Shown piece after piece: positions 6,001-7,565 of a DNA stretch of 7,694 bases. A program made the position numbers. Every line of letters starts with the position of its first letter. Positions within the stretch are counted from its first letter, which is position 1. The DNA comes from Escherichia coli (GTDB taxonomy: Bacteria; Pseudomonadota; Gammaproteobacteria; Enterobacterales; Enterobacteriaceae): the NCBI RefSeq assembly GCF_003334355.1, contig NZ_QOWP01000063.1. One strand, 5' to 3'.

Positions 6001-7565
6001 TCCGCGCTGTACGCTTTGCTGGCCTGGAAACCATCCGCAACAATGACGCCGCCGTTATCAATTTCACAGGTAGTCGGGTTACCGTACTGACTCAATTCCG
6101 CAGCGGTAGCTGTACGCTCGAGACGCCATGGGTTATTGGAGTTTTCAGCGCTGGTACCCCGTGGGCAATCTTTAGACCCAACCCACCAGGCGTTCTTGTA
6201 AACATTACCATTGAAAATAACATGGTAAATTTCGCTACCTTCCTGGCCGCTCCACGCTTGCAATGAGTAATCGTTAACGCTATCCGCTGGTGTTGATGGC
6301 TCGCTGTTATCCGGAGTTGGGGTCACCGGTGTTTCCGGAGTTGGATCAACCGGAGTCACAGCACCGCCATTATTATCCGGCTTAACGGAACAGGAGCCAG
6401 GGTTACCATACTGGCTGATTTCTGTTGCCGTTGCCGCGCGAACATAACGCCATGGGTTTCTGGCATCGTTTTCTTTCGCATCGCCTGGGCAATTTGCCGC
6501 GCCTACCCACCAGGCGTTCTTATAAATGCCGCCGTTATAGATAACGTACCATGTAGAAGAACCTTCCTGACCTTTCCAGGCTACGACAGCATAGTTGTCG
6601 TTTGACTTATCAGCTGGGGCTGGCTGAACATCAGGAGCCGGTTTAACGTCCGGTGCCGGTTTCACATCCGGTGCAGGCTGTGGTGCTGAAGTACAGGACT
6701 GTGGATTACTGGTTTCTGAGATTTCCGTTGCCGTAGCGGCACGAACATAACGCCATGGGTTGCTGGCATCATTGCCTTTCGCATCACCCGGGCAGTTAGA
6801 AGAGGCTACCCACCAGGCATTCTTATATACCGCACCATTAAAGACGACATACCAGGTCTGACCGCCCTGCTGTTTATTCCAGGCAACTACAGAAGAATTA
6901 GACGGAACAGTGCCCTGTGCTGGTGTAGCCGAACCGCCATTAGCCGGCGTATTGGATGCAGGCGTATTTGAATTTGAAGAAGATGAGCTGCCGCTCTTTT
7001 CGCAGGAAAGTGTATTGCCATACTGACTAATTTCAGCAGCTGTCGCGGTACGCTTTAAACGCCACGGGTTAGTTGCATCATTTACTTTCGCTTTTCCCGG
7101 GCAATTTGTAGAAGAAACCCACCAGGCATTTTCATAAATTTTGCCATCGAAAATAACCTGATATTTATTACCACCTTGTTGGTTATTCCATGCTTCCATT
7201 GCCAATGCTGGCAGAGCGGAACACACCAGCCCCATACCAATCATAGATTTAGTAAATATATTTAATTTCATTATAATCCCTTGTGACGTAAAAACTGCAA
7301 AACAAAAGTCCTACGCAGGAATTATTTACGTTTTACGAGAACCCTTCAATATGAATTAAATTACGGCATTAAAAATAAGAAAAAAGCCTGACAAATGAAG
7401 CATTTTAAAAACAGAAACATTCATATTTAAAATGTTAAATTGAATTGATATTTTAAATATGAATAATTTATTCGTTCTGACAGTACGAATAAGATATGCC
7501 GTCAACAAATGCAAAAAGGGCGCCGAAGCGCCCTTTTCAATTCAAAACTAATTAACGTGTAATTA

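What the first reader, a model, noticed from the sequence alone, without database searches (positions are those of the whole stretch)
7419..7492. Perfect 15-bp and 8-bp inverted repeats in the AT-rich chiA upstream region
The 291-nt chiA-tufA intergenic region contains a perfect 15-bp inverted repeat (ATTCATATTTAAAAT / ATTTTAAATATGAAT, 16-bp spacer) and, immediately beside it, a perfect 8-bp inverted repeat (TTATTCGT / ACGAATAA, 9-bp spacer). A perfect 15-mer dyad is unlikely to arise by chance even in AT-rich DNA. It could be an operator for a dimeric regulator of chiA, an H-NS nucleation site, or RNA structure in the chiA 5' leader. No regulator can be assigned from sequence alone.
Basis: seen in the sequence. 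Interest (0 to 1): 0.55.

Follow-up and report, generated by a model that had tools for sequence, protein, structure and literature searches.

The report
Self-maintaining AT-rich palindrome upstream of chiA
The 15-bp inverted repeat upstream of the E. coli chitinase gene chiA is real and not a chance match, but it is found only in E. coli and looks like a palindrome kept perfect by replication copying errors inside H-NS-silenced DNA, not a regulator's docking site; the 8-bp repeat beside it is ordinary chance.

Summary
The window is E. coli K-12 gspK-O / bfr / bfd / chiA / 3' end of tufA.

- **15-bp dyad** (7419-7433 / 7450-7464). Far beyond chance: about 1e-4 in dinucleotide-preserving shuffles.
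- **8-bp repeat** (7468-7475 / 7485-7492). Chance-level: P about 0.39.
- **Position.** The chiA start site, mapped twice in the literature, falls at window 7314. The repeats therefore lie at -105 to -178, upstream of the promoter. The 5'-leader RNA idea is refuted.
- **Within E. coli.** All 12 sampled haplotypes keep the dyad perfect, as 15, 17 or 19 bp. A rare divergent haplotype family has a complementary change in both arms, and its spacer fits the reverse complement far better than the direct sequence. The 8-bp repeat decays without compensation.
- **Outside E. coli.** Seven lineages with the same tuf-chiA synteny have no comparable dyad.
- **Other copies.** None was found elsewhere in E. 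coli genomes, metagenome contigs or viral contigs.
- **Known motifs.** No match to the H-NS high-affinity motif. The 8-bp repeat, the only one tested, fails NagC's TT-N9-AA rule.

Best reading: a quasipalindrome whose symmetry is maintained by replication template switching, embedded in the AT-rich tract through which H-NS/StpA silence chiA. A selected protein-binding dyad is not excluded. Interest is low to moderate.

The parts
7419..7433 (.). Promoter-proximal arm of the 15-bp dyad (ATTCATATTTAAAAT on the + strand), -105 to -119 from the chiA start site
   Evidence: Invariant in 9 of 12 sampled haplotypes; changed together with its partner in the other 3.
7434..7449 (.). 16-bp spacer of the dyad. 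K-12 has G at 7434 where most lineages have A, which there gives a 17-bp perfect dyad.
   Evidence: In the rare haplotype family the spacer matches the reverse complement at 13-14 of 16 positions, against 10 of 16 directly.
7450..7464 (.). Promoter-distal arm of the 15-bp dyad (ATTTTAAATATGAAT on the + strand), -136 to -150
7468..7492 (.). 8-bp inverted repeat TTATTCGT / ACGAATAA with a 9-bp loop, -154 to -178. Chance-level and not conserved.
   Evidence: P about 0.39. Three of its pairs are broken, with no both-sided compensating change, in 2-4 of 12 haplotypes.
7512..7539 (-). tufA intrinsic terminator hairpin; the mapped RNA 3' end is at 7511
   Evidence: Terminator scan. Term-seq 3' end 3470093(-) with matching sequence context in the Adams 2021 tables.
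7314..7349 (-). chiA core promoter: -35 TTGAAG at 7349-7344, -10 AATAAT at 7326-7321, start site at 7314
   Evidence: Promoter scan. Start site NC_000913.2 3467918 from PMC3950696. Coordinate offset checked against the Term-seq 3' end.
7345..7356 (-). Arm-like 12-mer ATTCATATTGAA (11 of 12 identical to the outer arm) overlapping the -35 hexamer; a weak lead
   Evidence: local shuffles reach it 75 times in 3000.
4578..7271 (-). chiA coding sequence (897 aa, bifunctional chitinase/lysozyme)
7563..7694 (-). 3' end of tufA; the stop codon is at 7563-7565

Best explanation
The 15-bp dyad is an AT-rich quasipalindrome specific to the E. coli lineage. It sits between the tufA terminator and the chiA promoter, centred at -127.5.

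Its perfect symmetry is most likely a product of mutation, not of selection for a binding site. When the DNA is single-stranded during replication the arms can pair as a hairpin. Template switching then copies one arm from the other. This homogenises the arms, can lengthen them, and can flip the spacer.

Functionally the dyad is just part of the very AT-rich tract through which H-NS/StpA silence chiA. It contributes AT content, not a specific operator. The adjacent 8-bp repeat is a chance match.

Shown here: existence, non-randomness, position relative to the start site, E. coli-only distribution, concerted change of the arms, and decay of the 8-bp repeat.

Inferred: the template-switch mechanism, and the absence of any sequence-specific function.
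For: - **Non-random.** About 1e-4 in local shuffles.
- **Perfect in every sampled haplotype.** All 12 E. coli haplotypes have perfectly complementary arms, but the perfect length varies: 15 bp (K-12 type), 17 bp (most lineages) and 19 bp (GF4-3).
- **Concerted arm change.** In the rare haplotype family (12 complete genomes; three distinct haplotypes, four genomes sequenced here) arm position 8 is changed in both arms, T to A and A to T, so the pair is kept. My arithmetic, no tool call: two independent changes would land on partner positions with complementary bases about once in 87 trials.
- **Spacer inversion.** The same family's spacer differs from the common type at 6 of 16 positions directly but at only 2-3 as a reverse complement. 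Under random substitution the simulated probabilities were 7e-4 (LHM10-1-type spacer, 6 substitutions) and 4e-5 (GF4-3 spacer, simulated with 7 substitutions although the direct difference is 6).
- **Arm sequence is not unusually conserved.** Arms differ at 2 of 30 positions, against 6 of 69 and 3 of 36 in the flanks. The spacer is a mutation cluster at 6 of 16.
- **A hairpin is plausible.** As single-stranded DNA the dyad folds at -9.4 to -14.5 kcal/mol, z-scores -3.7 to -5.5.
- **No dyad in orthologous spacers.** Seven other lineages with tuf-chiA synteny lack it, although the core promoter is recognisable in the closest one.
- **Single-copy.** Found only at this locus in E. coli genomes, metagenome contigs and viral contigs.
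- **Literature.**
  - Perfect inverted repeats of 13 bp or more are about 150-fold enriched in MG1655 non-coding DNA; the authors attribute this to template-switch correction (PMC5941160).
  - Template switching is described as homogenising arms and inverting spacers (abstracts of PMC8604942 and PMC8794818).
- **H-NS/StpA repression of chiA** is documented in PMC3950696.
Against: - The arm change is a single evolutionary event, so the covariation evidence is thin (1 pair of 20).
- The spacer difference can also be written as one insertion, one deletion and one substitution, because the spacer core ATTCAAT is itself nearly palindromic. Inversion is therefore favoured, not proven.
- Preserved symmetry is also what selection for a dimeric protein site or for a hairpin would give.
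- Weak hints of further arm-like copies exist: one overlapping the -35 (P about 0.025), one downstream of chiA (P about 0.03), and one in the 5' end of gspC (17 of 20).
- No direct binding or mutagenesis data for the dyad could be read. Francetic 2000 is not held.
Confidence: 0.55

Rival explanations
1. The dyad is a selected binding site for a sequence-specific dimeric or tetrameric DNA-binding protein. This could be a repressor, or an anti-silencer that relieves H-NS. It might act together with the arm-like copy over the -35.
For: - Perfect symmetry is kept in all 12 haplotypes, including through a two-sided change.
- The arm centres are 31 bp apart, about three helical turns (read from the sequence).
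- An arm-like 12-mer overlaps the -35.
- An arm-like 20-mer lies in the 5' end of gspC, a gene whose operon is also H-NS-silenced and whose secretion machinery is thought to export ChiA.
- BglJ-RcsB activates chiA, but its site was never found.
Against: - Absent from seven orthologous tuf-chiA spacers in other genera and lineages.
- The arm sequence diverges as fast as the flanks.
- The copy at the -35 did not change when the arms did.
- No match to the consensus sequences checked. A predicted BglJ-RcsB motif at about -150 was mutated without effect.
- 15-19-bp arms are far longer than typical half-sites.
Confidence: 0.15
2. The dyad is a selected high-affinity nucleation or bridging site for H-NS/StpA. 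Its symmetry or cruciform potential would set where the silencing filament starts, upstream of chiA.
For: - chiA is derepressed in an hns stpA mutant and is known as an H-NS target.
- The 61-nt core is 87% A+T with 8 TpA steps.
- The position, upstream of the promoter, is typical of upstream silencing elements (established knowledge of proU and bgl).
Against: - No match with up to 2 mismatches to TCGATAAATT in the spacer, and no enrichment in the window.
- H-NS recognition is not known to need dyad symmetry (own knowledge).
- Orthologous spacers are equally AT-rich (25-35% G+C) without any dyad. AT-richness alone is what is conserved.
Confidence: 0.15
3. The repeat acts as an RNA hairpin. It could be a back-up terminator or insulator for read-through from the very highly transcribed tufA (- strand: hairpin followed by GUUUCUGUUUUU), or part of an antisense transcript from + strand promoter-like sites.
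For: - RNA folds at -11.3 kcal/mol on the - strand and -17.7 kcal/mol on the + strand, z-scores -3.6 and -5.2.
- A U-rich run follows the hairpin on the - strand.
- The two-sided arm change keeps the base pair.
- Promoter-like hexamers lie on both strands inside the dyad.
Against: - The stem has a single G-C pair in 15, so it fails the usual terminator pattern.
- The only 3' end within 3,469,800-3,470,199 (window about 7218-7617) in the held Adams 2021 Term-seq tables is the tufA terminator at window 7511. None lies at the dyad.
- It is not in the chiA transcript (start site 7314).
- Only sub-threshold Rfam hits.
- No comparable hairpin in the orthologous spacers.
Confidence: 0.08
4. The dyad is a relic of a mobile element end or a recombination site at the edge of the chiA segment. 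That segment is present in some E. coli and absent in others.
For: - The match between chiA-positive and chiA-negative genomes ends at window 7511, only 19-92 bp from the repeats.
- The 12-mer TTATTCATATTT occurs at both ends of chiA (P about 0.03).
Against: - tuf-chiA-bfd synteny is shared with Enterobacter and Superficieibacter (tuf-chiA adjacency also with C. rodentium). chiA is therefore old at this site and its absence is a loss or replacement.
- Those genera lack the dyad.
- No second copy anywhere.
- No transposase or integrase nearby.
Confidence: 0.03

Closest known systems
Perfect short inverted repeats or quasipalindromes in E. coli non-coding DNA maintained by replication template switching (Lavi et al. 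2018, PMC5941160; the Lovett laboratory's quasipalindrome hotspots, PMC7202029)
   Same: - A perfect inverted repeat far beyond chance, in non-coding DNA, able to form a hairpin.
- Arms change in concert.
- Arm length fluctuates at the inner edge.
- Spacer differences fit an inversion.
   Different: - Unusually long (15-19 bp) and almost pure A/T.
- Template switching was not observed here, only inferred from two natural haplotype families.
Upstream AT-rich silencing regions of H-NS-repressed genes (proU, bgl, and the chiA promoter region described by Francetic et al. 2000)
   Same: AT-rich DNA upstream of a promoter that is derepressed in hns/stpA mutants and activated by BglJ-RcsB.
   Different: No match to the high-affinity H-NS motif. 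Dyad symmetry is not a known requirement for H-NS. Occupancy at the dyad itself is untested.
Palindromic operators of dimeric regulators (e.g. NagC/Mlc sites of chitin and GlcNAc genes)
   Same: Dyad symmetry upstream of a regulated promoter, and the gene belongs to chitin metabolism.
   Different: - Arms are 2-3 times longer than normal half-sites, with centres 31 bp apart.
- The 8-bp repeat does not satisfy the TT-N9-AA rule seen in a NagC site quoted in PMC5401889.
- Not conserved in orthologous promoters.
Hairpin-associated small inversions in chloroplast non-coding DNA (own knowledge: Kelchner and Wendel 1996)
   Same: A short loop flanked by inverted repeats appears flipped between close lineages while the stems stay intact.
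   Different: A different genome type. Here the inversion is supported statistically but is not the only possible reading.
Intrinsic (rho-independent) terminators, including tandem terminators
   Same: A hairpin followed by a U-rich run, located just downstream of a strong terminator.
   Different: The stem is almost entirely A-U, and no mapped 3' end lies there.

Membership tests
Template-switch-maintained quasipalindrome | Perfect inverted repeat longer than composition predicts | tested here: met
   About 1e-4 in regional and local shuffles.
Template-switch-maintained quasipalindrome | Arms evolve in concert (a change in one arm is mirrored in the other) | tested here: met
   One pair changed on both sides, in 3 haplotypes, as one event. 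No unpaired cell in the outer 15 pairs of 12 haplotypes.
Template-switch-maintained quasipalindrome | Spacer inversion or clustered multi-nucleotide change between close relatives | tested here: inconclusive
   Reverse-complement identity 13-14 of 16 against 10 of 16 direct (simulated P 7e-4 and 4e-5; the latter run used 7 substitutions where 6 were observed). An insertion-deletion-substitution path is about equally short.
Template-switch-maintained quasipalindrome | Direct observation of template-switch correction at the site | not testable with these tools
   Needs a genetic reporter with an engineered arm mismatch.
H-NS high-affinity nucleation site | Match to the 10-bp motif TCGATAAATT (motif recalled from Lang et al. 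2007; own knowledge) | tested here: not met
   No hit with up to 2 mismatches in 7272-7562. Seven hits in the window against 8.0 expected.
H-NS high-affinity nucleation site | H-NS occupancy centred on the element | not testable with these tools
   Only gene-level repression is documented in the papers I could read. Francetic 2000 is not held.
Palindromic transcription-factor operator | Conserved in orthologous promoters | tested here: not met
   Absent in seven non-E. coli tuf-chiA spacers. Present in all sampled E. coli.
Palindromic transcription-factor operator | Binding-site sequence more conserved than its flanks | tested here: not met
   Arms differ at 2 of 30 positions, flanks at 6 of 69 and 3 of 36, between the haplotype families.
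Palindromic transcription-factor operator | Match to a known consensus (NagC TT-N9-AA; BglJ-RcsB) | tested here: not met
   - The 8-bp repeat has GT-N9-AC at the symmetric positions (read against the site).
- The authors found no BglJ-RcsB box at chiA, and a mutated motif at about -150 had no effect.
5' leader RNA element | Lies between the transcription start and the start codon | tested here: not met
   Start site at 7314, ATG at 7271, repeats at 7419-7492.
5' leader RNA element | Match to a curated RNA family | tested here: not met
   Best Rfam hit 20.9 bits against a gathering score of 50.
Intrinsic terminator | G+C-rich stem followed by a U tract | tested here: not met
   The scan finds only the tufA terminator. 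The dyad stem has 1 G-C pair in 15.
Intrinsic terminator | Mapped RNA 3' end just after the hairpin | tested here: not met
   The held Adams 2021 tables list only 3470093(-), which is window 7511, in this interval. The held tables may be truncated.
Dispersed repeat (REP/BIME, MITE) | Multiple copies per genome | tested here: not met
   One locus per genome; the second 'place' reported is presumably the palindrome matching itself on the other strand (my reading). All pattern hits are tuf-chiA loci, apart from one coincidental terminator-like hairpin in an unrelated organism.

The most novel reading that the evidence does not exclude
The dyad is a selected cis-regulatory element private to E. 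coli. It would be a symmetric site for an unidentified regulator or nucleoid protein which, together with the arm-like copies over the chiA -35 and in the 5' end of gspC, loops or anchors the silenced chiA/gsp chromatin. The natural two-sided arm change would then reflect selection to keep the site symmetric.
Probability: 0.12. Interest if true: 0.5.

Novelty: new member of a known kind. Interest (0 to 1): 0.25.

Why it matters
If the main reading holds, this is a clean natural example of something usually shown only with reporters. A long AT-rich palindrome stays perfect, lengthens and flips its spacer through replication template switching. Within one species it therefore mimics the conserved-dyad and covariation signatures normally taken as evidence of an operator or an RNA structure.

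That is a useful caution for scans that flag perfect dyads in H-NS-silenced, AT-rich promoters. It does not change what is known about chiA control (H-NS/StpA repression, BglJ-RcsB activation).

If the minority reading holds, the dyad would be the missing cis element for chiA anti-silencing. That would be of moderate interest to people who study cryptic type II secretion and chitinase genes in commensal and adherent-invasive E. coli.

Tried and rejected
- **Other-species scan.** I replaced it with a protein search plus look-ups of the encoding contigs.
- **Outgroup identity.** Looking up the Bfr and prepilin-peptidase proteins of the outgroup contigs gave no species names.
- **Outgroup spacer in E. 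coli.** The closest outgroup spacer has no match in 5,426 E. coli genomes.
- **Rfam.** Only sub-threshold hits, probably driven by the terminator hairpin (my reading).
- **H-NS motif.** No enrichment and no hit in the spacer.
- **NagC.** Considered because chiA is a chitin gene. The papers found do not link NagC to E. coli chiA, and the 8-bp repeat fails TT-N9-AA.
- **Other regulators, checked by eye only** (from memory, not a test): IHF, Fis, Lrp, ArgR, RcsB, Fur, ArcA, FNR and TorR consensus sequences. None fitted.
- **Literature on H-NS occupancy.** Francetic 2000 is not held. Several papers that came up under 'chiA' only cited authors named Chia....
- **Start-site tables.** Thomason 2015 is not held. 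The Cappable-seq supplements hold no entry for this interval.
- **Mobile-element or target-duplication idea.** Rejected because tuf-chiA synteny is shared across genera.
- **Phase-variable invertible switch.** Rejected because the flipped spacer is confined to a haplotype family that differs at about 26-28 other positions of the spacer region.

Full report
**What is there.** The window is E. coli K-12 DNA. Its chiA-tufA spacer and the 4-kb flanks annotated here are 100% identical to K-12 derivatives. They carry gspO, bfr, bfd, chiA (4578-7271, minus strand) and the 3' end of tufA (stop codon 7563-7565, minus strand).

Both repeats are exactly as described:
- ATTCATATTTAAAAT at 7419-7433, and its reverse complement at 7450-7464, 16 bp apart.
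- TTATTCGT at 7468-7475 and ACGAATAA at 7485-7492, 9 bp apart.

**Chance.** I used dinucleotide-preserving shuffles with spacers up to 40.
- A perfect repeat of at least 15 bp arose once in 5000 shuffles of the spacer.
- It arose at 1.5e-4 and 5e-5 when only the 106-nt or 61-nt AT-rich core was shuffled.
- A repeat of at least 8 bp arose in 39% of shuffles.

The 15-bp dyad therefore needs an explanation and the 8-bp repeat does not.

**Position relative to known signals.**
- *tufA terminator.* It is the G+C-rich hairpin at 7512-7539. Term-seq tables of Adams et al. 2021 list a 3' end at 3470093(-) whose sequence context places it at window 7511.
- *chiA start site.* It was mapped by Francetic et al. 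2000 and confirmed by 5'-RACE at NC_000913.2 position 3467918 (PMC3950696). That is 43 nt upstream of the ATG, at window 7314. It lies 7 nt downstream of an AATAAT -10 hexamer that is paired with a TTGAAG -35 hexamer.
- *Coordinate check.* The conversion rests on a recalled 1,978-bp shift between genome versions. It is supported by the Term-seq end landing on the C of UUUUUGC, if the 61-nt context is laid out as 50 upstream + the end + 10 downstream (my assumption), and by the start site landing 7 nt after the -10.
- *Consequence.* The 15-bp dyad lies at -105 to -150 and the 8-bp repeat at -154 to -178. Neither is in the chiA transcript, so the leader-RNA reading is out.

**What is known about chiA control.**
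- chiA is repressed by H-NS (Francetic 2000, as cited) and reaches similar high levels in an hns stpA mutant and in a strain with constitutive BglJ.
- No BglJ-RcsB box could be found at chiA. Mutating a predicted motif about 150 bp upstream of the start, which is roughly where the distal arm lies, did not affect activation (data not shown by the authors).
- I found no paper that describes the dyad itself.

**Distribution within E. coli.** Of 5,426 complete genomes, 4,867 match the tuf terminator but only 3,143 carry the full spacer. The others, including O157:H7, have tuf followed by an unrelated spacer and bfd. No second copy of the dyad region exists in any genome at BLAST sensitivity.

I aligned 12 distinct spacer haplotypes.
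- *K-12 type.* 15-bp perfect dyad.
- *Common type.* Most other lineages have A instead of G at 7434, which gives a 17-bp perfect dyad.
- *Frequencies (inference).* Judged from identity bands, about 60% of chiA-positive genomes are K-12-like and about 39% fall in the band of the 17-bp type.
- *Rare family.* It comprises 12 genomes, of which I sequenced four (GF4-3, LHM10-1, an O121 strain and XJ5.2). Its spacer region differs from the common types at 26-28 of about 290 positions. Arm position 8 is changed in both arms in a complementary way (ATTCATAATTAAAAT / ATTTTAATTATGAAT). The dyad stays perfect, at 17 bp, and at 19 bp in GF4-3.
- *Its spacer.* It differs from the common type at 6 of 16 positions directly but at only 2-3 as a reverse complement. 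Under random substitution the simulated probabilities were 7e-4 (LHM10-1-type spacer) and 4e-5 (GF4-3 spacer; that run used 7 substitutions where 6 were observed).
- *Divergence by region.* Between the two families the arms differ at 2 of 30 positions, no less than the flanks (6 of 69, 3 of 36). The spacer is a cluster at 6 of 16.
- *8-bp repeat.* It loses pairs, with no both-sided compensating change, in several lineages.

**Distribution outside E. coli.** ChiA homologues at 66-76% identity lie in the same tuf-chiA-bfd-bfr-gspO arrangement in Superficieibacter, an Enterobacter and several unnamed assemblies. Citrobacter rodentium shares the tuf-chiA adjacency, followed by a second GH18 gene.
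- Their tuf-chiA spacers are similarly AT-rich (25-35% G+C).
- They contain no perfect repeat above 9 bp apart from the terminator, and only unremarkable imperfect ones.
- In the closest outgroup the core promoter (TTGAA-17-TAAATAAT) is still recognisable while the dyad region is not.
- A gapped pattern for the dyad found only E. coli tuf-chiA loci in the metagenome and viral collections. The one exception was a coincidental terminator-like hairpin in an unrelated AT-rich organism.

**Interpretation.** Four observations need one explanation:
- symmetry is always perfect, although the arm sequence is not especially conserved;
- the perfect length varies at the inner edge;
- one change is mirrored in both arms;
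- the spacer carries a cluster of changes that fits an inversion.

These are the published hallmarks of replication template switching at quasipalindromes. Perfect repeats of 13 bp or more are about 150-fold enriched in MG1655 non-coding DNA, and the authors argue that template switching corrects imperfect repeats to perfect ones (PMC5941160). Template switching is also described as homogenising arms and inverting spacers (abstracts).

One point mutation in an arm, followed by one switch that copies 'arm + spacer' in reverse complement, would produce both the mirrored arm change and the flipped spacer. The hairpin is plausible as single-stranded DNA (-9.4 to -14.5 kcal/mol).

I therefore read the dyad as a self-maintaining palindrome. 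It arose in the E. coli lineage inside the AT-rich tract that H-NS/StpA use to silence chiA.

**Limits.**
- The arm covariation is one event.
- The inversion has an alternative path through an insertion, a deletion and a substitution.
- Preserved symmetry is also what selection for a dimeric site or a hairpin would give.
- Weak, post-hoc hints of extra arm-like copies keep a protein-site reading alive at perhaps 12-15% for a specific regulator. These are one overlapping the -35 (P about 0.025), one just downstream of chiA (P about 0.03) and one in gspC (17 of 20).
- An H-NS nucleation role is not supported by the high-affinity motif and cannot be tested further here.
- An RNA role is disfavoured by the position, the A-U stem, the lack of a mapped 3' end and sub-threshold Rfam hits.

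**Verdict.**
The H-NS context is real, the leader RNA is refuted, and the operator is unsupported.
- The feature is a new member of a known kind: a template-switch-maintained perfect inverted repeat.
- Interest is low to moderate, mainly as a caution that such palindromes can imitate signatures of function.

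Noticed in passing
window 7511 boundary; L002 3871-4052; L003: chiA is a presence/absence polymorphism. 3,143 of 4,867 E. coli genomes that match the tuf terminator carry the full spacer. O157:H7 and others have an unrelated 182-nt tuf-bfd spacer, and gsp is reduced to a prepilin-peptidase remnant next to rpsJ. The bfd upstream region also differs, which suggests replacement of the whole segment.
   Followed up: partly
L025 7977-8001 (gspA-gspC divergent spacer of K-12, outside the window): Another perfect inverted repeat in an H-NS-silenced spacer with 23% G+C: TATGTATTTA / TAAATACATA, 10-bp arms and a 5-nt spacer.
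   Followed up: no
L025 8196-8215 (5' coding part of gspC): ATTTTTAATGTGAATTATTT matches the distal arm plus flank of the chiA dyad (ATTTTAAATATGAATAATTT) at 17 of 20 positions. I estimate about 0.1 such hits expected by chance in the 30 kb.
   Followed up: partly
window 4497-4508 and 7455-7466: The same 12-mer (TTATTCATATTT on the minus strand) lies just after the chiA terminator and in the distal dyad arm, so at both ends of the chiA unit. 33 of 1000 shuffles give a shared word this long.
   Followed up: partly
window 7345-7356: ATTCATATTGAA on the minus strand, 11 of 12 identical to the outer part of the dyad arm, overlaps the chiA -35 hexamer. 75 of 3000 local shuffles do as well. It did not change in the haplotypes whose arms changed.
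   Followed up: partly
window 7440-7545, + strand: Promoter-like TTGAAT-16-AATAAT (7440-7467), then the 8-bp hairpin, then the two-way tufA terminator hairpin could specify a roughly 65-nt RNA antisense to the spacer. Only sub-threshold Rfam hits (SraG 20.9 bits against 50), and no 3' end in the held Term-seq tables.
   Followed up: partly
L009 (E. coli KFu022, NZ_CP091677.1): An IS1A element sits between tuf and a 5'-truncated chiA. The chiA promoter and the 15-bp dyad are deleted, and only window 7471-7500 of the spacer remains.
   Followed up: no
L032 (IMGVR_UViG_2617270962_000004): A contig in the viral collection carries plain chromosomal E. coli tuf-chiA DNA. It is probably misclassified or packaged host DNA.
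   Followed up: no
L035 490-537 (metagenome Ga0070729_10044573): An unrelated AT-rich organism has the same 15-mer arms as the outer part of a roughly 23-bp hairpin with a G+C core (GCCTCGA...TCGAGGC), apparently a terminator. I take this as coincidence.
   Followed up: no
window 4578-7271 and proteins P0001-P0078: ChiA length varies among E. coli and Shigella (897, about 799 and about 701 aa). This appears to come from different numbers of the N-terminal chitin-binding repeats. XJ5.2 has an internal stop.
   Followed up: no
L019, L020 (Citrobacter cronae, Enterobacter sichuanensis): A ChiA paralogue (65-68% identical over the catalytic part) lies at a different locus, downstream of a sigma-54 activator gene. 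Each has its own 11-bp perfect inverted repeat in the upstream spacer.
   Followed up: no
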